DNA of 64,000 nt from Cyanobacteria bacterium P01_A01_bin.123 (GTDB lineage Bacteria > Cyanobacteriota > Cyanobacteriia > Phormidesmidales > Phormidesmidaceae), in the NCBI GenBank assembly GCA_039815185.1, contig JBCBZT010000027.1, positions 1 through 64,000 on the forward strand, in the 5' to 3' direction. Position numbers and translations under genes: made by a program. The stretch's first letter is position 1. Each line of letters starts with the position of its first letter. The notes under the pieces are model-generated. The model was not told the DNA's origin, did no database searches, and worked only from the letters and a program-made list of their open reading frames with translations. Positions 8,987 to 48,817 of this stretch are shown here, piece after piece.

Positions 8987-9427
8987 CTAACCCTCACTTA
9001 CAGGCTCATCATCTTCTTTACTTCTGCCACCACAGATCAGGGTTAAGTCCTCTGCTGAGAGTTTGACCAGCTTTGGCTGAGCAGAATTAGTTTTTTGGGT
9101 AGTCTCCAGTAGCGTTTCATTATGATTGAGCAGGATACCGTCGCCATGCTCGTTGTCATTTCCGCTACTATAGCCACCGACAATCGCCGCCAAATCTTCC
9201 ACACTGAGTTCAACAATCTGTGTTGATTGGGTTGGAGTAGACTCTTTAATATCGACTAGCGTTTCGTTGTGGTTGGCACTTACCGCATCACCACTAATAT
9301 CATCGCTGCCTTTACTTTCACTACTACCACCAACAATTACTTCCAGATTCTCCATACTGAGTTCTATGATTTGAGTGGGTTCAAGTTGAGTAGATTGAAT
9401 CTTTAGGGGTACGTGGGTCTTTAACAT
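8987..9427 (-). CDS. Three-module precursor (2 NHNET cassettes + terminal RSKEDDEPVSEG core)
   Basis: Leader repeats; N-terminus nearly identical to 7365..8810. Confidence 0.9.
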   Translation of the reverse strand: MLKTHVPLKIQSTQLEPTQIIELSMENLEVIVGGSSESKGSDDISGDAVSANHNETLVDIKESTPTQSTQIVELSVEDLAAIVGGYSSGNDNEHGDGILLNHNETLLETTQKTNSAQPKLVKLSAEDLTLICGGRSKEDDEPVSEG

Positions 9428-9602: not shown

Positions 9603-10031
9603 CTAACCCTCACCTATAGGCTCATCATCTTCTTTCCCTCTACCACCACAGATCAGGGTTAAGTCCTCTGCGGAGAGTGTGACAAGCTTAGGTTGGTCAG
9701 AAGCAGGTTTTGAAGGAGTACTCATGAGGGTTTCGTTGTGGTTCATACTGACACCATCACCATTTTCTGCTTCATAACTACCCTGGACACCGCCCAAAAT
9801 TTCTCCCAAGTCCTCCACACTCAGTTCAACGATTTCTTTTGATTTAGTTTGAGCAGGCTTTGCTTTGCTAATGATCGTTTCATTGTGGTTAAAGGCTACT
9901 TGACCGCCTGAGATTTCGGCCAAGTCTTCCTGGGTTAATTTAAGCAAATCTGCACTTGTGATCAAGTCACTTTCTGCTGGCTTAGCCTCTTCAAAAAGTA
10001 ACGCTAGTTCTTGCCGTAATTGATTGTTCAT
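9603..10031 (-). CDS. Three-module precursor (2 NHNET cassettes + terminal RGKEDDEPIGEG core)
   Basis: Leader repeats; AAGGAG RBS. Confidence 0.9.
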   Translation of the reverse strand: MNNQLRQELALLFEEAKPAESDLITSADLLKLTQEDLAEISGGQVAFNHNETIISKAKPAQTKSKEIVELSVEDLGEILGGVQGSYEAENGDGVSMNHNETLMSTPSKPASDQPKLVTLSAEDLTLICGGRGKEDDEPIGEG

Positions 10032-13500: not shown

Positions 13501-14172
13501 CGCATCTGGGATGTCGATAGCGGCCAATGCCTTTTGTGTCTTGAAGGACACAAAAACTGGGTGTGGGCTGTTGCTTGGAGTCCCGACGGTCAAGTCTTAG
13601 CCAGTGGTTGCGACGATCAAAAAATTCGCCTCTGGGATAGCCAGCAAGGGACTTGCCTTCAAGTCCTAGAAGGACATCGCAACTTCGTACGAACGGTTGC
13701 ATGGCAACCGGTTTGCCCAACCTCCCCAATAGAGACGGGACGTTTGCTCGCCAGCGGCAGTGATGACCTCGATATTCGCCTTTGGGACACCGATACGGGC
13801 ACCTGCCTGAACACCTTAACAGGGCATTCCGTCCACGTTCGAAAAGTGACCTGGCATCCGGACGGGGTGTTGTTGGCCAGCGGTAGCGCTGATTGCACCG
13901 TCAGGGTATGGGATACCGCCAGCGGTGAATGCCTCAACGTTCTGCAAGGTCACCAGGGAACTGTCTGGGCCGTTGCCTGGAGCCCAGATGGTCAAACGCT
14001 GGCCAGCAGTAGTACCGATGAAACAATCAAGCTGTGGGATACCGCTACAGGACAATGCCTGCAAACCCTTCGTTCCATGCGCCCCTATGAAGGCATGAAC
14101 ATTACCGGCGTCACGGGCCTCACAGCGGCCCAAAAAGCGACGCTGAAAGCCTTAGGGGCTGTCGAGTGCTAG
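10576..14172 (+). CDS. HTH-NB-ARC-pentapeptide-WD40 (STAND) protein
   Basis: N-terminal [24 protein letters not shown]-like region, Walker A GMGGIGKT, Walker B LVILDN, many WD40 repeats. Confidence 0.92.
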
Positions 14173-15290: not shown

Positions 15291-16703
15291 TTAGGCGCGG
15301 GCGCAAATCAATGACACCAGAGGCACGCCCTCGTAGTCGAAGTTGAGATAGCGATCGGCTTGCTTGTGGATACTGAGAATGGGGGAAATGATCAGGTCAT
15401 CGATGAAGGGCGTCTGCAAGGTATAGCCACTCTGCTTTAAGCGGTTGACCCACGATGCAGCGGTCTCATGGCGTTCAACTCGGGTTGTGTTGTCAACTTT
15501 GAGCACATCAATCACTTCACGGCCAAAAAAGCAGGTTTTTAAGCCAGCTTTGCTCTGCTCATCGATACCCAGCGCATCAATCATGTTGAACACGCTGCTG
15601 TAGTGACGCCAGCAATTGTGAAACCGAGTGCGAAAATCAGGCTCCAGATGATCGGTATTGGGTTCTGACAACACAATCAGGGTTGGGTTGAGCTGATGCA
15701 ATCGCTGCAGCACAGCGGTGCGAACGTCTTGTCTCGCAATATCGCAGATATGGTGGAGGGCAAAGGAGGCATTGATAATGGGGCAATTGCATTGGTGACT
15801 CAGTTGCTGCCAGGCTTGATTGTCGAGATCTTCAATGCCGTTGCAAAACGGGGTGAAGGTAACCTCAAATGGCAACCCATGGGCGGTGGCTAAAATCGCT
15901 TTTTGGGCCAGGGATAAACTTTGGATGGAGGGTTCGATGCCGATGATGTGAACCCGTTGGGGGCTTCTGCGCTTATGGGCTAGATGGTAGAGCAGCTCCA
16001 CCATTTGCCGCCCAGTGCCAATGCCAATATCAATCAGCGTGACGTCGTCGCGTCCGTCGCAGGCATCGATCATGAGACCCGTGGCCAGTTCGCTGACCAG
16101 TGAAACCAGGGGCACTTTGCTAGCCAACAGGTTGAACAGTTGAATTTGAGGGATTTGGTAGGGTTGCAGATAAAGGTTGGCTTTGTCGGCGATAGTGCCG
16201 GAGAGGTGCTCTGCCAGCGCACGGGCAAACACTAAGTGGTTGACTGCCTCGGGATGGGTGGCGGCGTTGAGCCTATCTAATAGTTGGTTTAATAGTTGTT
16301 GTGCCGTTCGCGTTTTGTGTTGAGCAATCAAATCTACCAGGTTGAAGAGCTGGGTCTCAGCGATTCTCTGTAGGAGAGGCTCCGCCAACGCTGCCAACTC
16401 ATCTTCTGTTAGCTCAATAAGTTGAAGCTTTTCAAGCTGAGAAGTCTCTACGGCATTGACTACCGTTTCATTGTGATTTTGACCACATTCCCAAGGCAGA
16501 CAATGATCTCCATCGCCTGGTTCACCACCCGCGATTCTCTGTAGGAGAGGCTCCGCCAACGCAGCTAATTCATCTTCCGTTAGCTCAATAGAAGTTGGTG
16601 ATGGTTCTAGATGATTTGACGGGGTCTGGCTAGCTGGTATCACAGCCATTTTGTTTGAGGGAACTTCTGTATTTGGGGCTAATGTTTTCAGGATCGGTTT
16701 CAT
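15291..16703 (-). CDS. Bacterial GRAS-domain protein fused to an N-terminal precursor cassette
   Basis: IDIGIGTGRQ, VHIIGIE, FALHH, LNPTLIVLSE, FFGREV, RVERHE..W GRAS motifs; N-terminus is leader-GG-EPGDGDHCLPWECGQ-NHNET-leader. Confidence 0.85.
   Translation of the reverse strand: MKPILKTLAPNTEVPSNKMAVIPASQTPSNHLEPSPTSIELTEDELAALAEPLLQRIAGGEPGDGDHCLPWECGQNHNETVVNAVETSQLEKLQLIELTEDELAALAEPLLQRIAETQLFNLVDLIAQHKTRTAQQLLNQLLDRLNAATHPEAVNHLVFARALAEHLSGTIADKANLYLQPYQIPQIQLFNLLASKVPLVSLVSELATGLMIDACDGRDDVTLIDIGIGTGRQMVELLYHLAHKRRSPQRVHIIGIEPSIQSLSLAQKAILATAHGLPFEVTFTPFCNGIEDLDNQAWQQLSHQCNCPIINASFALHHICDIARQDVRTAVLQRLHQLNPTLIVLSEPNTDHLEPDFRTRFHNCWRHYSSVFNMIDALGIDEQSKAGLKTCFFGREVIDVLKVDNTTRVERHETAASWVNRLKQSGYTLQTPFIDDLIISPILSIHKQADRYLNFDYEGVPLVSLICARA
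16365..16388. repeat. 24-nt small dispersed repeat inserted in a HIP1 site (in frame)
   Basis: GCGAT-[TCTCTGTAGGAGAGGCTCCGCCAA]-CGC; further copies at 16536, 19760, 38816 and a variant at 42915. Confidence 0.75.
16536..16559. repeat. 24-nt small dispersed repeat inserted in a HIP1 site (in frame)
   Basis: GCGAT-[insert]-CGC, adds LAEPLLQR to the leader. Confidence 0.75.
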
Positions 16704-16746
16704 GATTTCTATTTCCAGGTTGGGGGGTATCTATTGGTGGTTTGGT

Positions 16747-16839
16747 GGTAACCGTCCCCTGAGCGGAGTCGAAGGGGACATTCTGCTTGGGTTTTGGCTT
16801 CGACTTCGCTCAGCCAGCATAGTCTCTGGGACGGTTACC
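16747..16839. mobile_element. 93-bp MITE/REP-like palindromic insertion
   Basis: 12-bp TIR GGTAACCGTCCC/GGGACGGTTACC, flanking TTTGGT direct repeat, internal inverted CTGAGCG(G/A)AGTCGAAG pair; empty paralogous site near 18980-19000. Confidence 0.7.
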
Positions 16840-16890
16840 TTTGGTGAAGCAACAGGAAACCTGTCGCGTCACTTTCTTGCTCTTTTAACG

Positions 16891-17064
16891 TTATTTAGGT
16901 TCTGGTGTCCCACCGTGGCCATCACCACCATTACGAACGATATTGATTGGACCGCCAGCTATTAGCTCCAGTTCTGCGTTGGTCAACTGGATCAAGGTCT
17001 GAGATTGATCTGTTTTGCCTGAGGCTGCATAAGCAGCGAGTCGTTCTGTTTTTTGTTTAGTCAT
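16891..17064 (-). CDS. Small precursor, PINIVRNG class (57 aa)
   Basis: MTKQKTERLAAYAASGKTDQSQTLIQLTNAELELIAGG-PINIVRNGGDGHGGTPEPK. Confidence 0.8.
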   Translation of the reverse strand: MTKQKTERLAAYAASGKTDQSQTLIQLTNAELELIAGGPINIVRNGGDGHGGTPEPK

Positions 17065-17097
17065 GGAGGTAAAATTTATCTTTTCTAGATGTTTGTT

Positions 17098-17241
17098 TTA
17101 ACCGCCATTCCCAGGTTTTTCCCTTACGATGAAGCCCCCGACTATGCCATCTAGCTGTACTAAACTGAGTGACTGAAGTTTTGATAGGTGTTTTGGGTTC
17201 TGCGATTGTGAGTCTATTGCTTTTGGTTTGTTTTTGTTCAT
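17098..17241 (-). CDS. Small double-Gly precursor (47 aa)
   Basis: MNKNKPKAIDSQSQNPKHLSKLQSLSLVQLDGIVGG-FIVREKPGNGG; GAGG RBS. Confidence 0.75.
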   Translation of the reverse strand: MNKNKPKAIDSQSQNPKHLSKLQSLSLVQLDGIVGGFIVREKPGNGG

Positions 17242-17344
17242 CTTGATAACCTCTAAAAAATCTAAATCTAGCTGAAAATTTGGCTCAATACTTGAGGGAG
17301 ACTAAGAATTATTAGACTTCAAATCAACTCAGAATCTCTTCTCG

Positions 17345-17512
17345 CTATTCAGGTACTGGTGCTCCACCGTGGCCACCAGTACCATTACGAACGATATTGA
17401 TTGGGCCACCAGCTATTAGCTCCAGCTCTGCGTCGGTTAGCTGGATTAAAGATTCTAGGAGAGGAGTAGATTGGACTTGATTGAGTTGTGGTTTGCTTGT
17501 GTTTTTAGGCAT
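17345..17512 (-). CDS. Small precursor, PINIVRNG class (55 aa)
   Basis: MPKNTSKPQLNQVQSTPLLESLIQLTDAELELIAGG-PINIVRNGTGGHGGAPVPE. Confidence 0.8.
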   Translation of the reverse strand: MPKNTSKPQLNQVQSTPLLESLIQLTDAELELIAGGPINIVRNGTGGHGGAPVPE

Positions 17513-17630
17513 GATCTTTCTCCCTGAGGTGTAGAGTCTTTGTGCCTGAAACTGGCTGTTGATTGAAAATTTTTGCGATGTGATGGCCCAAAAGGGCCAC
17601 CGCGGCCATCTACTCTAGCCAAGATTTAGA

Positions 17631-17768
17631 TTAATCAGCATCTACGGGGTCATCATCCTCTTTTGGCCTACCGCCAGCTATTAGCTCTAGGTCAGCTTCT
17701 GAGAGTTTTTGCGGCAGATTATTGGCTGACTTAGCAGATTGGATTGGAGTAAGTTTTGGGTTGTTCAT
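17631..17768 (-). CDS. Small precursor, KEDD class (45 aa)
   Basis: MNNPKLTPIQSAKSANNLPQKLSEADLELIAGG-RPKEDDDPVDAD. Confidence 0.85.
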   Translation of the reverse strand: MNNPKLTPIQSAKSANNLPQKLSEADLELIAGGRPKEDDDPVDAD

Positions 17769-17801
17769 GAGAATTTATCCTGAGTCATAAACAGATCAGT
17801 T

Positions 17802-17939
17802 TTAACCTTCGTCTATAGGCTGATTATCCTCCTTTGGCTTACCACCAGCGATCAAGCTAAGGTCAGCTTCTGAGAGTTTTTCCAGCAGATTATTTGCTGA
17901 TTTATCAGATTGATTTGGAGTGGGTTTTGTGTTTTTCAT
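17802..17939 (-). CDS. Small precursor, KEDD class (45 aa)
   Basis: MKNTKPTPNQSDKSANNLLEKLSEADLSLIAGG-KPKEDNQPIDEG. Confidence 0.85.
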   Translation of the reverse strand: MKNTKPTPNQSDKSANNLLEKLSEADLSLIAGGKPKEDNQPIDEG

Positions 17940-18012
17940 GAGTAATTTTTCCTGAGTCATAAATGGACAGAACGGACGCTTTTATTGTCAAATCTGGATC
18001 ACTTTCAATCCA

Positions 18013-18043
18013 GTCCCCTCCAAGCTTGGGGGGTTAGGGGGGC
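18013..18043. repeat. Dispersed GC-rich palindromic repeat (CCCC..TTGGGGGGxTAGGGGGGC)
   Basis: Related copies near 20414-20506, 39025-39122 and, inverted, inside lanM at about 47928-47954. Confidence 0.6.
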
Positions 18044-18084
18044 ACGCTAGATGGAACGCCCGAATACTTAGATATCGTTGCGAA

Positions 18085-18222
18085 TTACTCGCCATCTATG
18101 GGCTGATCATCTTCTTTGGGCTTACCGCCAGCAATCAAGGAAAGATCAGCTTCTGAGAGTTCTTGAATGGTCTTGCTGATGAGCTTTGTTGTTTCAGTTT
18201 GCTTAGATTTTGGGTTGTTCAT
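18085..18222 (-). CDS. Small precursor, KEDD class (45 aa)
   Basis: MNNPKSKQTETTKLISKTIQELSEADLSLIAGG-KPKEDDQPIDGE; GGAG RBS. Confidence 0.85.
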   Translation of the reverse strand: MNNPKSKQTETTKLISKTIQELSEADLSLIAGGKPKEDDQPIDGE

Positions 18223-18253
18223 GGGTCATTTCTCCAAATGTTGTTGTTGCCGA

Positions 18254-18391
18254 TTATTCTTCACCAATGGGTCTATCATCCTCTTTGGATTTACTACCAC
18301 AGATGAGAGATAAGTCATCTCCTGAGAGTTCTTGTAGCAATTCGGAAGGAAAAGTTTTGGGTTGAATATGTGTGGGTTTTGTATTGTGCAT
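18254..18391 (-). CDS. Small precursor, KEDD class (45 aa)
   Basis: MHNTKPTHIQPKTFPSELLQELSGDDLSLICGS-KSKEDDRPIGEE; AGGAG RBS. Confidence 0.85.
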   Translation of the reverse strand: MHNTKPTHIQPKTFPSELLQELSGDDLSLICGSKSKEDDRPIGEE

Positions 18392-18520
18392 GAGTTGTTT
18401 CTCCTGAGTAATAAATGAATCTGTTTCAGCTTTAATTCTTCTAGATTAGGCAGGGGCGGTTGCACTTTAAAGATAGAGTGCGATCACCTTGTTCTGCCCT
18501 AGTTTGAATGCCGTTGCAGA

Positions 18521-18658
18521 TTAATCACTGTCTATGGGGTCATCATCCTCTTTGGGCTTGCCACCAGCAATAAGAGCTAGGTCCTCTGCTGAGAGTTCTT
18601 GAAGCAACTCTGCCGGGAGAGTTGGGGGTTGGGTTTGCATAGGTTTTGGATTGTTCAT
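18521..18658 (-). CDS. Small precursor, KEDD class (45 aa)
   Basis: MNNPKPMQTQPPTLPAELLQELSAEDLALIAGG-KPKEDDDPIDSD; GGAG RBS. Confidence 0.85.
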   Translation of the reverse strand: MNNPKPMQTQPPTLPAELLQELSAEDLALIAGGKPKEDDDPIDSD

Positions 18659-18689
18659 AGTTCATTTCTCCAAATGTTGTTGTTGCCAA

Positions 18690-18827
18690 TTATTCTTCAC
18701 CAATGGGTTCATCATCCTCTTTGGTTTTCCCGCCACAGATGAGGGCTAAGTCATCTTCTGGGAGTTTTTGGATAGCTCTGATTTTAGACATTGCAGATTG
18801 ATCTTTGATGTGTTTTTCGTTCTTCAT
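18690..18827 (-). CDS. Small precursor, KEDD class (45 aa)
   Basis: MKNEKHIKDQSAMSKIRAIQKLPEDDLALICGG-KTKEDDEPIGEE. Confidence 0.85.
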   Translation of the reverse strand: MKNEKHIKDQSAMSKIRAIQKLPEDDLALICGGKTKEDDEPIGEE

Positions 18828-19148
18828 GGATTACTTCTCATAAGTTGTGAGGGGGTTGCTTGAATCTTGATTTTTCTGGGTTTCTCAGGCGCGATCGCGC
18901 CTGGAGAGAATTTCTGCATTTGAGACTGATATTTTCACGATCAGTTTTATAATTTCTATTCTCAGGTTGGAGTTTATCTATTGGTGGTTTAGTGAAGCAA
19001 CGCGAAACGTGTCACGTCACTTTCTTGCTCTTTTAGCGTTATTTAGGTGACACACCGGGGGTAGTACTAAAGGGTTAATGGTGCATTGTAATGACGACAC
19101 TGCGCATGGCTGAGGAAGCGCTTCACGATTACTTTAGGAGACTTATCA

Positions 19149-19316
19149 TTACTTCTCGGGATCTACCGAACCGTGGCCACCAGCACCATTACGAACGATA
19201 TTGATTGGGCCGCCGGCTATTAGCTCTAGTTCTGCGTTGGTCAACTGAATTAAAGATTCTAGGAGAGGAGTAGATTGGACTTGATTGAGTTGTGGTTTTC
19301 TTGTGTTTTTAGGCAT
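19149..19316 (-). CDS. Small precursor, PINIVRNG class (55 aa)
   Basis: MPKNTRKPQLNQVQSTPLLESLIQLTNAELELIAGG-PINIVRNGAGGHGSVDPEK. Confidence 0.8.
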   Translation of the reverse strand: MPKNTRKPQLNQVQSTPLLESLIQLTNAELELIAGGPINIVRNGAGGHGSVDPEK

Positions 19317-19434
19317 GATCTTTCTCTCTGAGGTGTAGAGTCTTTGTGCCTGAAACTGGCTGTTGATTGAAAATTTTTGCGATGCGATGGCCCTTTTGGA
19401 CCATCGCGACTATCTACTCTAGCCAAGATTTAGA

Positions 19435-19572
19435 TTAATCAGCATCTACGGGGTCATCATCCTCTTTGGGCTTACCGCCAGCTATTAGCTCCAGGTCAGC
19501 TTCTGAGAGTTCTTGAATGGTCTTGCTAGTGAGCATCTTAGTTTCAGTTTGCCTAGATTTTAGGTTTTTCAT
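19435..19572 (-). CDS. Small precursor, KEDD class (45 aa)
   Basis: MKNLKSRQTETKMLTSKTIQELSEADLELIAGG-KPKEDDDPVDAD. Confidence 0.85.
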   Translation of the reverse strand: MKNLKSRQTETKMLTSKTIQELSEADLELIAGGKPKEDDDPVDAD

Positions 19573-19603
19573 GGGTTATTCTTCCAAATGTTGTTGTTGC
19601 AAA

Positions 19604-20308
19604 TTAGTTTTCAGCTAGAGGCTCATCATCCTCTTTGGTTCTCCCGCCACAGATGAGGGTTAAGTCATCTTCTAAGAATTTTTGAATGGTCTGGTTGTTA
19701 ATAGCCGTACTTGCCATCGTTTCATTGTGGTTTGCCGGGTCAACACCTGCACCTACGATTCCCCGTAGGAGAGGCTCCGCCAAAGCTTCTAGATCCGTCT
19801 CCATTAATCCAACAATTTGCATTAATTCAGATTGAGCGCCAACCTGAGAGGAATTATCAACATTAACTATTGTTTCATTGTGGTTGCCACCGCATTGATC
19901 GATAGGGCAACCACCATCGATAGGACGACCACTTGAAATGCCAGCTGCAATTGCTGCTAAATCTTCCCTCGTCAATTCAACGATTTGCACTAACTCAGAT
20001 TGAGCGTCAACCTGAGAGGAGTTCTCAACATTGACTATTGTTTCATTGTGGTTGGCACCGCATAATTCCCAGGGACAAGTCATACCACCTCCAATTGCTG
20101 CTAAATCTTCTTTCGTCAATTCAAAGATTTTTGATGACTCAGATTCAGAAAAAAACTGAGAGGAATTGACCGCACTGACCGTCGTTTTGTTGTGGTTAAA
20201 AGCAATTTTCTCGCCTGCGATTGCTGCCAAATCTTTCTCACCCAGTTCAATAATCTTAACGGGCTTAGAAGCTATCGTTTTTGGATTCCGTTTAGAATTC
20301 TCCTGCAT
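19604..20308 (-). CDS. Five-module precursor (4 NHN cassettes + terminal RTKEDDEPLAEN core)
   Basis: Probable ATG 20308 (MQENSK) with AGGAG RBS; cores include CPWELC and CPIDQC. Confidence 0.88.
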   Translation of the reverse strand: MQENSKRNPKTIASKPVKIIELGEKDLAAIAGEKIAFNHNKTTVSAVNSSQFFSESESSKIFELTKEDLAAIGGGMTCPWELCGANHNETIVNVENSSQVDAQSELVQIVELTREDLAAIAAGISSGRPIDGGCPIDQCGGNHNETIVNVDNSSQVGAQSELMQIVGLMETDLEALAEPLLRGIVGAGVDPANHNETMASTAINNQTIQKFLEDDLTLICGGRTKEDDEPLAEN

Positions 20309-20542
20309 GGTTTTTCTCCTTGATTGAGACGTTAATTTAGTGTTGCTGAATCGAGAGATGAATTTGCCAAAGTGGTGCACTCTGAATTGTCCCTTTTCAT
20401 GCATGTCTAGAGGACTTTAAGCCCCCTTTCTGGTATGCCCCTTGGGCTATATTCTGGGGGACTTTGAAAGGTTTATTCCCCCCAGAATTGGGGGGCTAGG
20501 GGGGCTAAGTCATACCGCTATTCAGTAATGCCAGAAATTGAA

Positions 20543-20782
20543 TCACCCCTCAAGACATCGTGGGCTACCAGACCAGCCCCCTGATATTGCCAAAAGATCT
20601 GTTTCGCTTAGTGGTTCTAACTGGTTTTGCAGTAGTTGGTAGAGGCAATCACTAGAGAACTGATAGCCCTTTTCAGCGCCAGCGCTTTTAATCAGCACGA
20701 TCGCTTCTAATAGACTATTCGTTTCCTTGATTTTCTGTCTCAATTGCGCGTCACTGAGCAACGCTTTGATTTGGCTTAGCAT
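20543..20782 (-). CDS. Nif11-leader lanthipeptide-type precursor (79 aa)
   Basis: MLSQIKALLSDAQLRQKIK..AEKGYQFS..LSETDLLAISGG-WSGSPRCLEG; AAGGAG RBS before ATG 20782. Confidence 0.85.
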   Translation of the reverse strand: MLSQIKALLSDAQLRQKIKETNSLLEAIVLIKSAGAEKGYQFSSDCLYQLLQNQLEPLSETDLLAISGGWSGSPRCLEG

Positions 20783-20898
20783 AATGCTTATCTCCTTTTG
20801 CAATGAAGGTAAGACTGTACGGATTCTGAATGATTTTGCGAGGCACGATCGCGCCCTAAAGGCAGCGCGCGATCGCCCTGCTCTAGCCAAGATATAAA

Positions 20899-21144
20899 TT
20901 AATTATCTTCACCAATGGGATCATCATCCTCTTTAGATCTCCCGCCACAGATGAGGGCTAAGTCATCTTCTGAGAGTTTTTGAATGGACTGGTTGTTGAT
21001 AGCCGTACCCACCATCGTTTCATTGTGATTTGCCAGGTCAACACCTGCACCGACAATCGCTTCTAAATCCTTCTCCATCAATTCAACAATTCCAGGGGAT
21101 TTAGGGAGCGTTTTTTGAGGCTTTTGCTTTGACTTCTTCTTCAT
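20899..21144 (-). CDS. Two-module precursor (NHNET cassette + RSKEDDDPIGEDN core)
   Basis: Leader repeats; AAGGAG RBS. Confidence 0.88.
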   Translation of the reverse strand: MKKKSKQKPQKTLPKSPGIVELMEKDLEAIVGAGVDLANHNETMVGTAINNQSIQKLSEDDLALICGGRSKEDDDPIGEDN

Positions 21145-21208
21145 GATTTTTTCTCCTTAATAGAAGGTTATTTTTTAAGCCTAGGACTTGCCTTTTCGAC
21201 TTACTTTT

Positions 21209-21240
21209 ACTGTATTCAATAATCGAGAATAAGTAGGGAA
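21209..21240 (-). promoter_or_regulatory. Shared island promoter motif
   Basis: TTCCCTA-CTTA-TTCTCGATT-ATTGAA-TACAGT. Confidence 0.75.
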
Positions 21241-21396
21241 TAAAAATGCTTTTAGAGCAGGTTTTTGAGCTATTTTTTAATATAAAAAGCGATCGCATTC
21301 CATTAAAAAATAGATGCGATCGCTTTCGTTATTTATGACAATAATTAATGACGATTGACCTGGCCATCAGCCATTGTCAATCCAAAATCCTTAACC

Positions 21397-22245
21397 TTAT
21401 ACTGCCGCCTGAAAAACCTTGCAGCTAAGTGCAAGCATCTCATCTAAAAAACTGTCGTAGGCATCCCAAACGGCCTGCATCTTTAAGTTGACCAGATCGC
21501 GGGGCGCACTCAGTTGTTCCAGTCGGCGCGTTAACTGTGTCGCATCGCCAGTATGATCGGTCTCAACTGCAATATATTGCCTCAGCCAAGCCAAATCATA
21601 GGCAGAAATTGCCTGAGTTCGTTCGATTTGGGCTTGAATTGCTAACGCCAATTGATAGGCATAAATCTTGCCCGCGAGTAACGCCCCCAGGGCTAAGAAT
21701 GGCTCTTGATCGGTGTAGTAACCTTCAAGTTGTTGCTTTAGATTTGTTCCTGGACTCTTAATCGCAACGGTATCAAACTGACTAGCTGGGACAGGTTGCA
21801 ATCGCCGCCAGGGCTTGAGGGCGTAATAAAGCCGATCAAACAACACGCGATTAATTCGTTCAGGCTTGCCATGGCCTAGCTCATCGTAGAGCTGCCGGAC
21901 CAAAACACAGCTAATGATTTCATCGTCAATGCGGCAGAGCATCGTTGAGAGCCACTGGGCCATATTGCTGTGGACCTGCCGCAGATTATGGAAAAGCAAC
22001 CATAGGCTGTTGAGATCCAGCGGTTTGGACTGGAGCCACTCAAAGTAAGGATGGGTGGCAACCTCCCTGTGCTCGAAGGACTTGATCAGGATTTCTAAAC
22101 GTTGGGGGTAATCCATAGACGGGTGCCCATTCATGAGCTGACCTGTCACAACACCGGAGGGCTGGGGTTCAATTAGGGTTAAGGTTTGATGGGCCATCTT
22201 GTTTTCCTGATGTGCAGACACGCGATTGATCTTTGAAGGGCACAA
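21397..22245 (-). CDS. Heme-oxygenase-like (iron-containing redox enzyme family) protein with degenerate metal ligands
   Basis: HPYF, YDELGHG, ALGALLAG, IAVETDH; alternative ATG at 22197. Confidence 0.75.
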   Translation of the reverse strand: MCPSKINRVSAHQENKMAHQTLTLIEPQPSGVVTGQLMNGHPSMDYPQRLEILIKSFEHREVATHPYFEWLQSKPLDLNSLWLLFHNLRQVHSNMAQWLSTMLCRIDDEIISCVLVRQLYDELGHGKPERINRVLFDRLYYALKPWRRLQPVPASQFDTVAIKSPGTNLKQQLEGYYTDQEPFLALGALLAGKIYAYQLALAIQAQIERTQAISAYDLAWLRQYIAVETDHTGDATQLTRRLEQLSAPRDLVNLKMQAVWDAYDSFLDEMLALSCKVFQAAV

Positions 22246-23133
22246 CTATTGCTCAATTCTGCTCATCATCGTTTCATTGTGGTTTACACCACAGTTGTCA
22301 ATCTCGGTACAATCATCTCCGCGACCACCCCCAGCGATCGCCGCTAGATCTTCCTCACTTAGTTCAACGATCTGAGCTGACTTGGATTGAGTAGAGGCTG
22401 TTGTATGGACTATCGTTTCGTTATGATTAGCTCCTAACGCAGGGTCTGTACTATGACCAGAACCGCTTGCGATCGCCGCTAAGTTTTCCCCACTTAGTTC
22501 AACGATTTGGACTGACATAGGTTTAGTATCAGCCTGCAAATTTTTAACCGCATTCACCATCGTTTCATTGTGGTTTAGCTCAATTCCAGGCGGAGGTGGC
22601 CCATCGTTACGCTCTCCACCCCCTGCGATCGCCGCTAAGTCTTCTTCACTTAGTTCAACGATTTGGGCTGGCTTAGAGCTAGGGGTAGCCTGCAAATTTT
22701 TAACCGCATTCACCATCGTTTCATTGTGATTAACACTAATGCCTCGTGTTGAGATATTGGCATTATCGTTATTACTCCCACCATATATGGCTTCTAAGGC
22801 CTTTTCACTGAGTTCAACTATTGCCAATGGTTTAGGCTGAGTATCTTTGTCAAACTCAACCAGTGTTTCATTATGATTAATCTGAATGCCTGCACCTGAA
22901 ATATTCGCCAGATCTTCCTTACTTAATTCAAAGATTTTGGCTGGTTCATCTTGAGAGTTAGCTTGTAAAGTCTCTCTTTGATTAACCAGCATTTCATTGT
23001 GGTTCATCCTGACGCCAGCACCAACAATGGCCTGCAAATCTTTCTCGCTCAATTCAACTAGCTTTGGCAATGAAGATTGACTAGCAGAGGGGTGTTGAGG
23101 GGATGGACGTCGATGGGGTTGGGGCATAGTCAT
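22246..23133 (-). CDS. Six-cassette NHNE precursor
   Basis: Six leader-core-NHNE(T/M) repeats. Confidence 0.9.
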   Translation of the reverse strand: MTMPQPHRRPSPQHPSASQSSLPKLVELSEKDLQAIVGAGVRMNHNEMLVNQRETLQANSQDEPAKIFELSKEDLANISGAGIQINHNETLVEFDKDTQPKPLAIVELSEKALEAIYGGSNNDNANISTRGISVNHNETMVNAVKNLQATPSSKPAQIVELSEEDLAAIAGGGERNDGPPPPGIELNHNETMVNAVKNLQADTKPMSVQIVELSGENLAAIASGSGHSTDPALGANHNETIVHTTASTQSKSAQIVELSEEDLAAIAGGGRGDDCTEIDNCGVNHNETMMSRIEQ

Positions 23134-26400: not shown

Positions 26401-27117
26401 AGCCCCGATAGTCAAACCCTGGCCAGTGGCGTCCATGGCCAAACGGTGAATTTGTGGGACGTTCAAACCGGGCAGTGCTTGAAAACTTGGCAAGGCCATG
26501 ACAACTCGATTCGGTCGGTGCGGTGGAGTCCGGATGGCCGGATGCTGGCCACCGGCAGTGATGATCAAACCGTCAAGATCTGGGATGTCGCGACAGTCAC
26601 CTGCCTGCTCACGCTGCCCCATGCCAATTGGGTGTGGTCAGTCGCCTGGAGCCCGCAGGCAACAATCGTAGTAACGGGCTGCGCCGATCACACGGTTAAC
26701 CTGTGGAATGCTGAGACGGGTGAATGTTTAGCAACTTGGAAAGGGCACAACAACTCGGTTCGTTCTGTAGCTTGGAGCCCGATTCACGCAGCATCCCCAG
26801 AGGGGGCTGGACAGATCATCGCCAGTGGGAGTGATGACCAAACGGTGAAACTATGGGATGTCAAAACAGGGCACTGTTTACAGACCTTGCAGGGCCATAT
26901 TAATGCGGTGGTATCGGTTGCCTGGAGTCCTAACGGTAAAACTCTCATCAGCAGCAGTGCTGATGAAACCATGAGAATTTGGCATCCTGACTCGGGCGAG
27001 TGTTTGGCAACGCTCCGCGCCGATCGCCCCTACGAAGGCATGAACATTACCGGCGTCACAGGTCTCACAGAAGCACAGAAAGCGACCCTGAAAGCTTTGG
27101 GGGCTGTTGAGAGTTGA
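23485..27117 (+). CDS. HTH-NB-ARC-pentapeptide-WD40 (STAND) protein
   Basis: RRRRGVLLS N-terminus, GIGGVGKT, LLILDN, WD40 repeats. Confidence 0.92.
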   Translation: MKQPQRSRRRRGVLLSPQGWQRLQDVLEQSARQHNGGYPYTLTQLVDLTGLSSKTLTRIHSRKTPIDRKTLEEYFSAFDLRLTAQDCAAPEADPQAVKDAAPPAEAATDEESTPAAPAKISWGAAPDVSTFYGRTTELSTLASWIAPASPTDRCRLVAVLGIGGVGKTTLVVKVVEQLLAAIEGEKTAPAFPFDFVIWRSLSNAPPLDTLLGEIIPIISHQQETQTDRQRVFQYLRTRRCLLILDNLETILQPQQPGRFRVGYEDYGQFLRQIGETAHQSCLIFTSREKPMAIASLEGVELPVRSLQLGGLQTEATVLLTAKGLSGSVQDHNTLIQSYDGNPLALKIVATSILDLFEGDIQAFLSHDSLLFNGVRRLLNEQFARISPLQQSIMYWLAINREWTTVLQLEEDLVPAVSRGRLLEALEALCWRSLVEKQARAYSQQPVVMEYVTSRWVEQVGDELTTLDFELFIRHPLIKTTVAEYINQSQTRLILMPVLTQFQSNFRAIATLEQQILRSLTALRQMEPHLSGYGGGNLINLCIHLDVDLTQFDFSGLNLWHTCLQGVELHQVNFENSNLAKSIFTQTFGVVFSVAFSPDSQRLVTGDDNGNLYLWNIADGQLHWMLQGHGTWVWCLAWSPDGETIASGSADQTIKLWHPETGECLQTFQGHSNWVRSIAWHPDGHMLASGSMDQTIKLWDVSNGNCLQTLQMTDDSAWSVAWSPDGQTLASGGHGQVVRLWQLETGNCVQLLAGHTSWIRAVDWRPDGQQLASGSDDQTVKVWDAQTGTCLQTFEGHSNAIWHVKWSPDGQTLASSAHDHHVRIWHPQTGQCRQLLQNHTNWVWSAAWSPNGQALASVSHDRTIRLWETQTWHCLKTWQGYTSVPMAVDWNPDGQTLATCSDDQTVRLWDVQTRRCTQILPGHANVVWTVAWSPDGQTLASGSDDCTVRLWHAQTGDCLRVLTHQSWVWSVAWSPDSQTLASGVHGQTVNLWDVQTGQCLKTWQGHDNSIRSVRWSPDGRMLATGSDDQTVKIWDVATVTCLLTLPHANWVWSVAWSPQATIVVTGCADHTVNLWNAETGECLATWKGHNNSVRSVAWSPIHAASPEGAGQIIASGSDDQTVKLWDVKTGHCLQTLQGHINAVVSVAWSPNGKTLISSSADETMRIWHPDSGECLATLRADRPYEGMNITGVTGLTEAQKATLKALGAVES

Positions 27118-29984: not shown

Positions 29985-30000
29985 AGGGAGTGGATGCAAA

Positions 30001-31416: not shown

Positions 31417-31484
31417 CCGGAGTAATGTCACCTGTCAATTAGTCTTCGTTGACCTTTGATCGAATCGCCAAACACCCAAATATC

Positions 31485-33251: not shown

Positions 33252-33278
33252 GTTTGATCCATCTTCAATAGGAAACCG

Positions 33279-39519: not shown

Positions 39520-39762
39520 TTATTCTTCACCAATGGGGTCATCATCCTCTTTGGATTTCCCACCACAGATGAGGGCTAAGTCATCTTCTGAGAGTTCTTG
39601 AATGGACTTGTTGTTGATAGCTTTACTCGCCATCGTTTCATTGTGGTTTGCCAAGTCAACACCTGCACCGACGATCGCTTCTAAATCCTTCTCCATCAAT
39701 TCAACAATTTCAGGGGATTTAGGGGGCGTTTTTTGAGGCTTTTGCTTTGATTTCTTCTTCAT
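39520..39762 (-). CDS. Two-module precursor (NHNET cassette + KSKEDDDPIGEE core)
   Basis: Paralog of 20899..21144. Confidence 0.88.
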   Translation of the reverse strand: MKKKSKQKPQKTPPKSPEIVELMEKDLEAIVGAGVDLANHNETMASKAINNKSIQELSEDDLALICGGKSKEDDDPIGEE

Positions 39763-45424: not shown

Positions 45425-48400
45425 TTACTCCCAAAGCAACACGGAAGGCAGTTCATCCTGGGCTAACCGCAACAGTTCATAACCAATCCCAGTGGTGCCT
45501 TGGAAAAAGCCAGGGTTAAAGACAGAATTGGGCAGGTTAGCAAACAATTGGTATGCGCCGGATTGGTTGGCGCGGGCAACCACGGCAGCAGCTTTTTGTG
45601 AAGCAGCTTGTCGCCAATCTGGGCGATTGCAGCGTTGGGCTCCTACTAAAAGGACTTCAGCCACACCCAAATTACCGCAACAGAGATGATCAATGCCTTT
45701 TAGGCCTTGTTGTTGGGTAGTTTCTAGGGCAATTTGCAGGTCTTGCACCAGGGCTTCTGTCGGCCAAACATCCAGGCTACCCAGGCGTCCTAAGCCAATG
45801 CCAGCCGCGCCGTGGCACCATTGCACCGGAAAGGTAGGGCGACTTTCTGGATTGAGGTCGCGCAGGTCAGGCCAGTTTGCCTGAGTAGGAGAAAACACAC
45901 TGCGTTCGTAGGCCATCCCCTCTAGGGCGGCTTCTCGATAGTCTGGGTCATCGGTAATGGCGTAGAGGCGCAAGAGGGCGTAGGCAATCCCAGTGGCCCC
46001 ATGGGAGAAACCCGTCAGGGGTTTTTCGGCCAAGTTTTTCCAGGCTTTGGGGCCTGACGCTGGGTGGGTTTGTTGGCTGAGCAGGTGTTGTCCACAGGCG
46101 ATGGCTTTTTCTAAAACGGTGATCTCTCCTGTCACCTGATAGAGCGACAGCGATCCTAAAATGCTGCCCGCCGCACCGCTGATGATGTCCAAGGCTTGGT
46201 CAGCGGCAATCATCTCTGGTGTGATCATGGTTGCCAGGGTTTGCGCCTCCGTCAGGAAGGTTTCATCTTCTAAAAACTGACCCACCTTCACAAAGGTATA
46301 GATCATCGCAGTGATGCCAGTGGCAATGCCGATGCCCATCCGTCGCGCAAAGCGTTGGCGCGCGTCTGAAGTCATGCTGTTCAACTGTCGCCGTAGGGGG
46401 TGCAACACTCGCAGGGTCAGATCGCGGTAATGGGGCTCCTGGGTAACGTGGTACAGCCCCGCCAGGAACAGCGCTACGCCACAGCGCCCATCGTAGAGAC
46501 TGTCATTGAGGAGCTGGAGTTGATAGCGATTAGCTTGGGGGACAAACCCCAGGCTGATCCAGTTGAGGCTGCCGTCGGTATCTTGCAAGGCTCTGACCTC
46601 AAGGTCGGCTGCGATCGCACGGGCAGCCTGGATGAGTTGTTCGCGACTGAGCAGGGGCAGCTCGTTTGCCTGCCAGGGCCGGGCCTCATCGACGGACGGT
46701 TGGGCCACCCTGGCATAAAAGGCTCCCTGGATAATAGCCACCTGCTGGGCCAGGTTGGTTTCATTCAGGGCCTGGATTTGTGAGATGACATAGTCATAGC
46801 TGGGGCGCTTAAAATACTGAGAAATGGTCTGGATGTTTCTCAAAATCAAAGCATCGTTGCTGGTATTGGCGGTAAAAAAAGGAATATCCAGCTGCTCCAT
46901 AGCCCGCAGCTCAGCCTGGACAATGGGCCAGGCATTGGGCTGTTGTTGAGCTAACACAAAAGCCCGACTGAGGTAGTCCAACTCAATGCTATAGTCCACC
47001 CCATGCTTGAGATGATCTGGTGTCCAGGCTTTATTTAACAGAATGTAGTAGATGCGAGTGGCGCGCATAATAAACCGCACCTGCTGATTTTGTAACCCTG
47101 CCAATGGCCCCCCGGCGGCCAGCAGCAGACTTTGCTGCTGCATCAGGAACCGATACATGCACTCAAACCCGGTCACAATATGGACTTGATAGTCGTTGGG
47201 TGACAGGGGCGTATCGCCCAAATGGGGCACATTCTTGGCAATGGGTGCGGTGACTGTCTCGGCGCGCAAATGCATGTCGTCGGTATTCACCGCCTGCCAG
47301 CGGAGCACCTTGCAGGGGGCGGGTTGTGGGTCAGTACTGCCCAGGCCACTGATGTCAAAGGCAAGCCGCTGATCGGGGCTAAAATCCCACTGGGGCAGCA
47401 ACCCTGTACGCAAGACAGAGTCGCCAAACAGCTGGGTAGATTCTGTCTCTAGGGCCAGGGCATCCGGTGAATTTTCGATCAGGTGGACATCGTGTTGCAG
47501 CAGAGATTCTATATCAATCAGCACTAAATGCTCACCGCTGGCGATCAGGTTTTCATGGTGGCAGTCGGTGCCCCGCAACACATAGATTAAGCACGACAAC
47601 ATGCCTGCCCGTTGGTAAAAGCGCTCAACGGCGGCTTCATCATGGCAGGGCAACTGTTCAACATATTCGACCCAGCCATATCCATCGCGATTAAGCACCT
47701 GGATGACTTTGAAATCGAGCAGTTGATTGTGTTGATTACACCAGGTCAGTAGATGATTCCAGGCCACCTCTAAACCGGAATCTTTGGGTTTGTAGACCAG
47801 TGTGAGGCCCGACTCAAAGGTGAGCAGCAGCACCGTACGCCCCTGGTTGTGCGGGTCAGACAGGGATGCCTGGAGGTCAGTCACTTTGCCCAGGGGCGCA
47901 TTCTGACACTCAGAGTTAGATGCTTGAGCCCCCCCTACCCCCCAATATGGGGTGTTGTTGAGGCTAAAATCTCCTGAGCTTGGAGAAAATCGCTGCTGAA
48001 TGTCAGTTTGGTCTTGGGCCAGCCGCTGGATGAATTCAGCCGTGGCATCGACCCACAGATCAACCGCCACCGCAATCAGCCGCCCCAGGACAGGATAGGT
48101 TTGCAAGAAACTGAGCAATCCATCTGCCAGTAAGTCCGTCACAAATTGATGGTACTGGGTTTGGCTATGACCTGTTTCAGCCTCTTCGATACCCAAAAGA
48201 TTCAGTAAGTTTTGCCCCAGAGATCGTCCTTTAGAAAACTCAAAATCGAGGGTTTTGTTAGAAATTTGGGTGAGCCGTTGCAACAGGCTACGTTCTAGCG
48301 TGGTGTAAGCTTTCTCTGAAAGCAGAGAAAGCGACAGGATCTTGCCAGTGAGTTGGGTCACTCCCAGGCGCGTGAGCAAGTTTTGTCTGGCGACTTGCAG

Positions 48401-48817
48401 GGTGGGGAGCCAGATGTCTTCAAAGGGAGTGGGATGGTCAGGATCGCTCAGCCAGACCAGATCAGGGTTGGGGGTGAACCCTGCGCCAGTTTGGATCATT
48501 TGTCGCAGGGTCTCGGCCCAGGCGGGTAATGGCTGCCCCGCTGCAAACTTCACGGTACCCAGATAAGGCCGAACTTCGTCCAGGCTGAGTCCGTCCCATT
48601 CTAAGCGTTTCTGCAAAATCTCTAGCCTGTTTTCATGGGCGACGGTTTGACACCACCGCTCGCAGCGGCGATCCATGGCTGATGGGTTGCTCTGGTGGGG
48701 AGCAACCGTAAAGCGATCAGCATCGAGTCGCTCCCACAGGAAGCTAGCCTCGGCAACGATCGTGGCTAAATCGCCGTCGGTGAGTTGAGGGGATTTTGCA
48801 ATTAGGGTTGTAGACAT
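45425..48817 (-). CDS. lanM: Class II lanthipeptide synthetase (ProcM/CyanoLanM type)
   Basis: YKPKD, TDCHHENLIA, IDIESL, GFSHGATG, WCHGAAG, HLCCG. Confidence 0.95.
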   Translation of the reverse strand: MSTTLIAKSPQLTDGDLATIVAEASFLWERLDADRFTVAPHQSNPSAMDRRCERWCQTVAHENRLEILQKRLEWDGLSLDEVRPYLGTVKFAAGQPLPAWAETLRQMIQTGAGFTPNPDLVWLSDPDHPTPFEDIWLPTLQVARQNLLTRLGVTQLTGKILSLSLLSEKAYTTLERSLLQRLTQISNKTLDFEFSKGRSLGQNLLNLLGIEEAETGHSQTQYHQFVTDLLADGLLSFLQTYPVLGRLIAVAVDLWVDATAEFIQRLAQDQTDIQQRFSPSSGDFSLNNTPYWGVGGAQASNSECQNAPLGKVTDLQASLSDPHNQGRTVLLLTFESGLTLVYKPKDSGLEVAWNHLLTWCNQHNQLLDFKVIQVLNRDGYGWVEYVEQLPCHDEAAVERFYQRAGMLSCLIYVLRGTDCHHENLIASGEHLVLIDIESLLQHDVHLIENSPDALALETESTQLFGDSVLRTGLLPQWDFSPDQRLAFDISGLGSTDPQPAPCKVLRWQAVNTDDMHLRAETVTAPIAKNVPHLGDTPLSPNDYQVHIVTGFECMYRFLMQQQSLLLAAGGPLAGLQNQQVRFIMRATRIYYILLNKAWTPDHLKHGVDYSIELDYLSRAFVLAQQQPNAWPIVQAELRAMEQLDIPFFTANTSNDALILRNIQTISQYFKRPSYDYVISQIQALNETNLAQQVAIIQGAFYARVAQPSVDEARPWQANELPLLSREQLIQAARAIAADLEVRALQDTDGSLNWISLGFVPQANRYQLQLLNDSLYDGRCGVALFLAGLYHVTQEPHYRDLTLRVLHPLRRQLNSMTSDARQRFARRMGIGIATGITAMIYTFVKVGQFLEDETFLTEAQTLATMITPEMIAADQALDIISGAAGSILGSLSLYQVTGEITVLEKAIACGQHLLSQQTHPASGPKAWKNLAEKPLTGFSHGATGIAYALLRLYAITDDPDYREAALEGMAYERSVFSPTQANWPDLRDLNPESRPTFPVQWCHGAAGIGLGRLGSLDVWPTEALVQDLQIALETTQQQGLKGIDHLCCGNLGVAEVLLVGAQRCNRPDWRQAASQKAAAVVARANQSGAYQLFANLPNSVFNPGFFQGTTGIGYELLRLAQDELPSVLLWE

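What the first reader, a model, noticed from the sequence alone, without database searches (positions are those of the whole stretch)
16891..19572. Eleven unannotated mini-genes fill the apparent 2.7-kb gap
Hand translation gives 11 co-oriented ORFs of 45-57 aa, most with an RBS. Seven are exactly 45 aa (33-aa leader, 12-aa core) despite divergent N-termini, which suggests selection on length. The block grew by tandem duplication (17345-17700 resembles 19149-19500).
Basis: seen in the sequence. Interest (0 to 1): 0.82.

Follow-up and report, generated by a model that had tools for sequence, protein, structure and literature searches.

The report
Eleven tiny peptide-precursor genes in tandem
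Eleven tiny genes in a row in a cyanobacterium encode short proteins with a shared export-type leader, and seven of them end in the same conserved acidic 12-residue tail, which is likely cut off, likely exported unmodified and may act as a signal between cells.

Summary
Observation confirmed: 11 minus-strand ORFs (45-57 aa) cover 60% of 16891-19572; seven are 45 aa (33+12). They behave as real genes: dN/dS 0.37 overall and 0.22 in the core, with 43-45-aa homologues elsewhere. All carry a double-glycine leader box. Seven have an acidic [KR]xKED[DN]xP core, three a PINIVRNG core, one is divergent. Both core types also end multi-cassette NHNET precursors. In two other genomes the KEDD gene sits directly behind the HlyD gene of an NHLM exporter. 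Of the neighbours tested, only LanM occurs in all three genomes. The core has no Cys, and the TPR partner, GRAS and ATP-grasp are each missing from one carrier. Best reading: cut at Gly-Gly, exported unmodified, likely a signal; function untested. Against it: this assembly lacks the cluster-type exporter, and no receptor kinase was seen nearby. Selection for exactly 45 aa is not supported: 4 of 7 outside homologues are 43-44 aa, and the copies are mosaics recombined in register at the leader box. New variant of a known kind.

The parts
16891..17064 (-). Mini-gene, 57 aa: 38-aa double-Gly leader + 19-aa PINIVRNG-type core
   Evidence: front half 55% identical over 38 aa to NHNET precursor P0108, whose last cassette has the same core type
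17098..17241 (-). Mini-gene, 47 aa: divergent member, 36-aa leader + 11-aa core; weakest-supported of the 11
   Evidence: weak likeness to the last cassette of P0146 (E 2e-4 pairwise); not in the protein collection
17345..17512 (-). Mini-gene, 55 aa: 36-aa leader + 19-aa PINIVRNG-type core
   Evidence: in-frame +3 nt variant in one marine metagenome contig
17631..17768 (-). KEDD mini-gene, 45 aa (33+12); mosaic of a 17802-type front and a 19435-type box+core
   Evidence: close homologue P0048 three accession numbers from the GRAS homologue P0002 in a named MAG
17802..17939 (-). KEDD mini-gene, 45 aa from the second ATG (an upstream ATG gives 52 aa)
   Evidence: second ATG aligns with the starts of all paralogues
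18085..18222 (-). KEDD mini-gene, 45 aa
18254..18391 (-). KEDD mini-gene, 45 aa; GS instead of GG at the predicted cut site
18521..18658 (-). KEDD mini-gene, 45 aa
18690..18827 (-). KEDD mini-gene, 45 aa
19149..19316 (-). Mini-gene, 55 aa: PINIVRNG-type core; duplicate of 17345
   Evidence: (pN 0.12, pS 0.26 against 17345)
19435..19572 (-). KEDD mini-gene, 45 aa
17366..17711 (.). Duplicated segment, copy 1; its upstream edge lies in the leader box of 17631, its other edge in the core of 17345
   Evidence: 93% to 19170-19515 over 346 nt, no gaps
19170..19515 (.). Duplicated segment, copy 2
19604..20308 (-). Multi-cassette precursor (234 aa from the ATG at 20308): leader+NHNET cassettes, last cassette KEDD; 31 nt upstream of the array
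   Evidence: P0056
20899..21144 (-). Two-cassette precursor, 81 aa: NHNET cassette + KEDD cassette
8987..9427 (-). Multi-cassette precursor ending in a KEDD cassette
9603..10031 (-). Multi-cassette precursor ending in a KEDD cassette
39520..39762 (-). Two-cassette precursor ending in a KEDD cassette (paralogue of 20899)
16745..16890 (-). Strong stem-loops between the last mini-gene and the GRAS gene (predicted RNA structure; may end or stabilise the array transcript)
   Evidence: z -6.9, 0 of 200 shuffles as stable
15291..16703 (-). Context: bacterial GRAS-domain gene with a fused leader+NHNET cassette; not required for KEDD genes
   Evidence: no PF03514 match in KEDD-bearing G081
45425..48817 (-). 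Context: LanM lanthipeptide synthetase with a CCG motif; the one modifying enzyme tested that is shared by all three KEDD-bearing genomes

Best explanation
The 2.7 kb holds 11 protein-coding mini-genes under purifying selection, each a double-glycine-type leader joined to a short core, whose products are likely cut after Gly-Gly by the C39 peptidase of an NHLM-type ABC exporter, likely released unmodified, and probably act as a diffusible signal for the surrounding peptide gene cluster. Shown: the ORFs, the leader box, selection on leader box and core, conservation in other genomes, position right behind the exporter's HlyD gene in two other genomes, and mosaic structure from exchange at the leader box. 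Inferred: expression, cleavage and export (about 0.7); no modification of the KEDD core (about 0.65); a signalling role (about 0.4). The genes are stand-alone forms of the last cassette of the multi-cassette NHNET precursors. The array likely grew by duplication plus in-register recombination at the leader box, which swaps leader fronts against cores and keeps the length.
For: Coding: pooled dN/dS among the 7 paralogues is 0.37 (front 0.47, leader box 0.30, core 0.22, core positions 34-41 0.17); pN/pS 0.52, codon bootstrap 0.38-0.70. In marine metagenome contigs, of 6 indel rows inside the array 3 single-base ones fall in spacers, 1 is in frame and 2 compensate each other. Leader: [KE]LxxxDLxxIxG[GS] fits the cyanobacterial double-glycine consensus M(R/K)ELX3E(I/L)X2(I/V)XG(G/A) quoted in PMC3140520 (passages), with D for the second E and without the opening M(R/K). 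Export: in G091 (L042) and G081/G532 (L050, L066) KEDD genes lie directly downstream of an NHLP-system HlyD and ABC2, and the matching C39 ABC1 lies elsewhere on the same contig (G091) or beside LanM on another contig (G081). PMC2887384 describes this three-gene cassette as the leader-cleaving exporter (passages). Unmodified: 0 of 15 KEDD-type cores contain Cys, and Ser/Thr is not conserved. G081 (97% complete) has KEDD but no NHNET cassette, TPR orthologue or GRAS; G091 (75% complete) has KEDD but no MvdD match. Specific function: the core is as constrained as the leader box, the reverse of NHLP/Nif11 precursors, whose cores are described as hypervariable (PMC2887384, PMC10783134, passages). 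Unmodified double-glycine pheromones encoded beside their exporter are known from Gram-positive bacteria (recalled).
Against: No expression data (one search listed no RNA run). The cluster-type NHLM trio (80-87% identical among G090, G091 and G081) was not found in this assembly; the only NHLM system is on contig C92 at 50-56% identity, with a short 204-aa HlyD-like protein that has no Pfam match. The window starts at a contig end, so the trio may be unassembled or lost. No histidine kinase or response regulator was among the 39 window proteins scanned, so no receptor is identified. Twelve copies is more than a signal would obviously need. G090 has the exporter, LanM and NHNET genes but no KEDD gene, so the peptide is dispensable for this cluster type. 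The dN/dS pairs are not independent and the genes are mosaics. The exporter link rests on two related genomes of one genus. The 47-aa gene has little support of its own, and the PINIVRNG motif was found in 1 of 173 genomes of the order (only this one).
Confidence: 0.45

Rival explanations
1. The exported acidic cores bind metal ions or mineral surfaces (Ca, Fe, Mn) outside the cell; the many copies raise the dose.
For: The 14 typical KEDD cores have net charge -2 to -4 with a run of Glu/Asp; 12 copies in this genome; marine source; an RTX calcium-binding protein is encoded about 5 kb upstream in G081.
Against: The fixed Lys and Pro and the spacing are not explained by chelation; relatives have only 1-2 copies; short linear acidic peptides usually bind weakly (general knowledge).
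Confidence: 0.15
2. The cores are enzymatically modified: a Lys-to-Glu/Asp lactam made by the MvdD-like ATP-grasp enzyme (graspetide-like), or dehydration by LanM.
For: Invariant Lys, Glu, Asp; an MvdD-like ligase at 2573-3664 and one in G081; LanM in all three KEDD genomes. The G081 microviridin precursor shares the leader box and a DDP[IV]T-like stretch with the KEDD peptide (43% over 42 aa with a 9-residue gap).
Against: KEDD precursors lack the PFFARFL-type motif that PMC8939145 gives as needed to start catalysis (passages); both ATP-grasp genes have their own adjacent precursors with such a motif; no MvdD match in G091, 75% complete; no Cys, and Ser/Thr in only 7 of 14 typical cores at unfixed positions; no DNA-level match to the microviridin precursor.
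Confidence: 0.15
3. The peptides act inside the cell or at the exporter as leader decoys or trans-acting leaders that tune LanM or the C39 peptidase; the core matters little.
For: LanM and an NHLM exporter are the only partners shared by the carriers; the leader box is the most repeated element of the cluster (30 NHNET cassettes plus these genes).
Against: The core is under selection at least as strong as the leader box (0.17-0.22 against 0.30) and is kept across genera.
Confidence: 0.12
4. The array is mostly recombination debris from multi-cassette NHNET genes; one or two copies function and the rest are tolerated.
For: Mosaic paralogues; a truncated GRAS-like 5' end and pseudogene-like remains at 18904-19048; degenerate HDO-like genes and a truncated precursor at 38651; one metagenome contig joins 17379 to 19181.
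Against: All 11 frames are intact; synonymous change exceeds non-synonymous in every region; G081 has a stand-alone KEDD gene without any NHNET gene.
Confidence: 0.13

Closest known systems
Double-glycine-leader precursors exported by the NHLM three-gene cassette (TIGR03794/03796/03797; NHLP and Nif11-type precursors; PMC2887384, PMC3140520, passages seen)
   Same: Leader box ending in Gly-Gly; paralogous expansion; LanM in the cluster; homologues directly behind the NHLM HlyD gene in two genomes.
   Different: Leader only 32-38 aa with no NHLP or Nif11 domain; core short, acidic, Cys-free and conserved instead of hypervariable and Cys/Ser/Thr-rich; the variable part is the leader front; no family model matches.
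Prochlorosin (ProcA/SyncA) tandem arrays with a CCG-type LanM (PMC10783134, passages seen)
   Same: Many tandem precursor genes (up to 16 there) near one CCG-motif LanM.
   Different: Prochlorosins have a conserved Nif11 leader and hypervariable Cys-containing cores; here the cores cannot form lanthionine and are under purifying selection.
Unmodified double-glycine peptide pheromones and class II bacteriocin induction factors (ComC, plantaricin A type; recalled)
   Same: About 45-aa precursor, Gly-Gly site, short unmodified core, gene beside a C39 exporter in relatives.
   Different: Gram-negative host; acidic core; up to 12 copies; no adjacent two-component receptor seen; no ComC or bacteriocin model matches the mini-genes.
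Microviridin/graspetide precursors (PF12559; PMC8939145, passages seen)
   Same: Gly-Gly leader box; Lys and acidic residues in the core; an MvdD-like ligase in two of the three genomes.
   Different: No PFFARFL-type motif, no TxKYPSD-type core (motif recalled); the ligases have their own adjacent precursors.
Multi-cassette NHNET precursor family
   Same: Same leader box; KEDD and PINIVRNG cores occur as the last cassette of such proteins (5 in the window, P0108 elsewhere).
   Different: The mini-genes are single cassettes without NHNET and occur in a genome where neither NHNET nor its co-occurring TPR gene was found.

Membership tests
Double-glycine-leader peptide precursors (C39/NHLM substrates) | Leader box ELxxxE/DLxxI/VxG(G/A) before the core | tested here: met
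   All 11 match a box pattern; one has GS, one has Q for the acidic residue; consensus from PMC3140520
Double-glycine-leader peptide precursors (C39/NHLM substrates) | Cognate C39 ABC exporter in the cluster or genome | tested here: inconclusive
   Exporter genes adjacent in G091 and G081; in this assembly only the unlinked C92 system at 50-56% identity
Double-glycine-leader peptide precursors (C39/NHLM substrates) | Cleavage at Gly-Gly and export | not testable with these tools
   needs biochemistry or peptidomics
NHLP / Nif11 (N11P) precursors | Long nitrile-hydratase-like or Nif11 leader domain (TIGR03793, TIGR03798) | tested here: not met
   No NCBIfam or Pfam match; leaders are 33-38 aa
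NHLP / Nif11 (N11P) precursors | Hypervariable Cys/Ser/Thr/Gly-rich core | tested here: not met
   KEDD core dN/dS 0.17-0.22, no Cys
Class II lanthipeptides | Cys plus Ser/Thr in the core | tested here: not met
   0 Cys in all 19 cores listed
Class II lanthipeptides | LanM in the cluster | tested here: met
   TIGR03897 at 45425-48817 and in G081, G091; Nif11-type precursors are separately present
Microviridin-type graspetides | PFFARFL-type leader motif | tested here: not met
   Absent from all 11; present in the ligases' own neighbours
Microviridin-type graspetides | ATP-grasp ligase co-occurring with the precursor | tested here: inconclusive
   Present in G000 and G081, not found in G091 (75% complete)
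Double-glycine peptide pheromones | Cognate receptor (histidine kinase) and an induced regulon | tested here: inconclusive
   No kinase among 39 window proteins scanned; the rest of the genome was not searched for one; activity untestable here
NHNET multi-cassette precursors | NHNET motif after the core | tested here: not met
   Absent from all 11 mini-genes; present in 30 cassettes elsewhere in the window

The most novel reading that the evidence does not exclude
An undescribed cyanobacterial peptide-pheromone family: a Cys-free acidic KEDDxP peptide, exported with the lanthipeptides by the NHLM system, that controls a hybrid biosynthetic cluster. Its genes form a self-shuffling cassette array in which crossing-over at the leader box moves cores between stand-alone genes, multi-cassette precursors and enzyme N-termini. 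This would be prochlorosin logic reversed (fixed core, variable leader) and a peptide quorum signal in a filamentous cyanobacterium.
Probability: 0.25. Interest if true: 0.72.

Novelty: new variant of a known kind. Interest (0 to 1): 0.45.

Why it matters
Small double-glycine precursors are routinely missed or unnamed, and cyanobacterial arrays are usually read as libraries of variable lanthipeptides. Here the core is the conserved part and cannot be cyclised by LanM, which points to one specific partner and gives cheap, directly testable 11-12-residue synthetic peptides; a cultured strain (record L046) carries two of the genes. If they are signals, they would give a handle on how filamentous marine cyanobacteria switch on large biosynthetic clusters. 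The array also shows, at sequence level, how precursor cassettes are shuffled at the leader box. If the function proves mundane, it remains an ordinary new precursor family of narrow range.

Tried and rejected
Selection for exactly 45 aa: rejected as unproven. GRAS, TPR, HDO or ATP-grasp as the dedicated KEDD enzyme: GRAS and TPR not found in G081; MvdD not found in G091; no HDO on the G091 cluster contig; HDOs were not searched in G081. GRAS as bait in genome contigs gave no loci. A single 45-aa query in 60 relatives: 0. KEDD profile: 2 of 172 other genomes of the order, 0 of 400 sampled from the class (only up to 17 candidates scored per genome). Metagenome scan with alignment A1: 2 loci from 310 pattern matches, both leader-only look-alikes, dropped; its patterns would have missed the RGKEDD variants, so it is no evidence of absence. 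Pattern scan of genome contigs: 6 stretches, 2 real, 4 dropped because my script found no ORF with the motif in frame. PINIVRNG pattern: 0 of 172 other genomes. ESM Atlas: best hits 0.88 (mini-gene) and 0.80 (295-aa precursor), below the 0.9 lead level. Promoter and terminator scans at chance level. No RNA holder listed; this says nothing about expression. Spacer folds: 2 of 6 significant (16745-16890, z -6.9; 19317-19434, z -4.0), 4 not. Origin from a microviridin precursor: protein likeness mostly in the leader box, no DNA match; kept as a lead only. Literature: searches for NHNE (top 30 of 652 listed), NHNET (top 10 of 18), KEDDEP/KEDDDP/PINIVR (5 of 5) and topic searches showed no paper on these peptides; PMC8225149 mentions a lanthipeptide cluster in Le. 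spongobia, and the word 'precursor' does not occur in its main text (passages). PMC5934393 gave no hits for my terms and PMC13108848 nothing on this system (passages). Supplements were not read, and subscription papers are not covered. No structure or complex prediction was run.
Full report
Observation. The window is the first 64 kb of a 107-kb contig of a cyanobacterium, judged by the named relatives of its proteins. Between 16891 and 19572 the minus strand carries 11 ATG-started ORFs of 57, 47, 55, 45, 45, 45, 45, 45, 45, 55 and 45 aa. They cover 60% of the stretch, with spacers of 31-321 nt. Resampled sequence gives a mean of 2.3 and at most 7 such ORFs in 1000 trials. Seven of 11 have a clear Shine-Dalgarno-like site. 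The duplication is real: 17366-17711 matches 19170-19515 at 93% over 346 nt without gaps. Contigs of a marine metagenome run cover 16789-20369, in six pieces with one hole, with no differing letters; this may be the source sample. Two other runs of the same study hold identical pieces.

Anatomy. Every ORF has a leader box [KEQS]LxxxD/E/QLxxIxG[GS] followed by a short core. It fits the cyanobacterial double-glycine consensus quoted in PMC3140520 (passages) apart from its opening residues. Seven genes have a 33-aa leader and a 12-aa acidic core [KR]xKED[DN]xP[IV]xxx (net charge -2 to -4, no Cys). Three have a 36-38-aa leader and a 19-aa PINIVRNG core. One 47-aa gene is divergent. The same leader box begins 30 cassettes in the window that end in NHNE(T/M), in multi-cassette precursors and at the N-terminus of the GRAS gene. 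Five of those longer genes end in a KEDD cassette, giving 12 KEDD cores, all on this contig. The NHNET family is widespread: 262 clusters at E <= 0.001, and 147 of the 148 newly returned proteins examined carry NHN[EQ]. One of them, P0108, ends in a PINIVR-type cassette, and several have K[PS]E[DN][DE] inside NHNET cores. The mini-genes are therefore best seen as stand-alone last cassettes of that family.

Are they genes? Pooled pairwise dN/dS among the seven paralogues is 0.37: 0.47 for codons 2-19, 0.30 for the leader box, 0.22 for the core and 0.17 for core positions 34-41. pN/pS is 0.52 with a codon bootstrap of 0.38-0.70; the pairs are not independent. The PINIVRNG genes also show pN below pS in all three comparisons. 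In related metagenome contigs no net frameshift falls in a mini-gene among 6 indel rows, a small sample. A profile search returned 13 proteins of 182 candidates: 5 from this contig, 7 strong homologues of 43-45 aa from five other contigs, and 1 weak 60-aa one. In whole genomes the KEDD profile rang in 2 of 172 others of the order (G091, G081) and in 0 of 400 sampled from the class. The family is real and narrow. Expression is untested.

Length. Four of 7 outside homologues are 43-44 aa. The paralogues are mosaics: front and back halves have different closest relatives (83% against 96% for 17631; 86% front match of 19435 to 18085; 73% against 86% for 18254), and the duplication edge falls in the leader box. 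Exchange in register at this box keeps the length by itself, and the short spacers are equally constant. A loose 32-33-aa constraint on the leader remains possible.

Context and partners. The window is a large hybrid cluster: LanM, Nif11-type precursors, HDO-like genes, a TPR gene, GRAS, a ScyB-like dehydrogenase, an MvdD-like ATP-grasp ligase with two adjacent precursors of its own, menaquinone-pathway genes and fatty-acyl/reductase genes. G091 holds a syntenic cluster with two KEDD genes (45 and 43 aa) directly downstream of an NHLP-system HlyD and ABC2, and the C39-bearing ABC1 on the same contig; the named record L046 (Leptothoe spongobia TAU-MAC 1115) carries the same two peptides and is counted once with it. 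G081 (reached as G532 through L050) has one 44-aa KEDD gene in the same position behind HlyD. Across five genomes (G000, G091, G081, G090, G193): the TPR gene is found in the 4 with an NHNET match and not in G081. GRAS is not found in G081, MvdD not in G091 (75% complete), and LanM is in all three KEDD carriers. G090 has exporter, LanM, NHNET and TPR but no KEDD gene. So KEDD genes travel with the exporter and LanM, not with NHNET, TPR, GRAS or ATP-grasp. In this assembly the cluster-type exporter was not found; only an unlinked NHLM system on contig C92 (50-56% identity, C39 domain present, short HlyD-like protein) is there.

Mechanism. Shown: coding, leader type, selection on the core, link to the exporter in relatives, mosaic growth. 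Inferred: cleavage at Gly-Gly and export by an NHLM system, as PMC2887384 proposes for that cassette (passages); release of an unmodified 11-12-mer, since there is no Cys, no fixed Ser/Thr and no PFFARFL-type motif (PMC8939145, passages); and a role needing a specific partner, because the core is conserved where NHLP/Nif11 and prochlorosin cores are described as hypervariable. I commit to a diffusible signal as the likeliest role, by analogy with unmodified double-glycine pheromones (recalled), at about 0.4 for that step and 0.45 for the reading as a whole. No receptor was identified, and the 12-fold dosage fits a bulk role such as ion binding as well. Rivals: metal or mineral binding, a modified product, leader decoy, recombination debris.

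Earlier notes. The scan's notes on the GRAS fusion and the NHNET-TPR pairing gave leads. I tested only co-occurrence, which agrees with the TPR going with NHNET and shows that KEDD genes do not need either neighbour. I did not test their structural predictions.

Novelty and verdict. The kind is known: double-glycine precursors beside an NHLM exporter, in tandem arrays. The variant is not matched by Pfam, NCBIfam or the papers searched (supplements and subscription papers not seen): short leaders with variable fronts, a fixed Cys-free acidic core, and cassettes exchanged at the leader box. Real, well supported as genes, function open. Interest 0.45; new variant of a known kind.

Noticed in passing
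window 21397-22245 and 40024-40860: The two 280-aa HDO-like (PF14518) genes lack several residues that look like iron ligands in the 5978-7228 HDO-cupin and in homologue P0031 (Lys and Tyr at aligned Glu and His positions), so they may be inactive. P0031 itself starts with a fused leader+NHNET cassette, like the GRAS protein.
   Followed up: partly
window 10576-14172, 23485-27117, 41600-45376: Three NB-ARC/AAA-WD40 genes each lie head to head with an NHNET precursor gene; candidates for regulators of the precursor operons. No full-length match on the G091 cluster contig.
   Followed up: no
window 3888-4055 and 4153-4314, with 2573-3664: Two small ORFs with a PLFxLLLE motif and Gly-Gly/Gly-Ser sites lie just upstream of the MvdD-like ligase; likely its own degenerate graspetide precursors.
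   Followed up: partly
window 16366, 16537, 19761, 38817 (27 nt): A short in-frame DNA element adds about eight residues inside the leader box of four cassettes; it occurs 4 times in the genome, all on this contig.
   Followed up: partly
window 18904-19048 against 16657-16900: The region downstream of the 19149 gene repeats the sequence downstream of the 16891 gene and the 5' end of the GRAS gene (81-90%), suggesting an older duplication that once included the GRAS start.
   Followed up: partly
window 17379 to 19181, run X4: One metagenome contig joins the two duplicated segments and skips 1.8 kb: a shorter array allele or an assembly collapse.
   Followed up: no
window 20543-23133 and 38651-41376: The block NHNET gene, HDO-like gene, 80-aa precursor, Nif11-type precursor is present twice, the second followed by a truncated precursor.
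   Followed up: partly
window 29235-37343; L041: A menaquinone/phylloquinone-pathway gene set with DUF2515 lies inside the peptide cluster, also in G091, there with a DXP synthase gene added; its link to the cluster is unexplained.
   Followed up: no
L052:9138-12772; L066:352-1707: AAA_35 genes (one with a CHASE2 sensor domain in G091) lie on the cluster contigs of both other KEDD carriers; a possible receptor lead, but such genes are common in cyanobacteria.
   Followed up: no
L064:10769-10981: G081 has a two-core microviridin precursor (PF12559) between an NRPS and an MvdD-like ligase, next to the NHLM ABC1, in the same cluster type.
   Followed up: partly
L037:3402-3599; L038:4189-5117: Unrelated metagenome loci with double-glycine or Nif11-type precursors came up as leader-only matches: one beside acyl-carrier and synthase-like genes, one with three tandem precursors beside an ABC transporter.
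   Followed up: no
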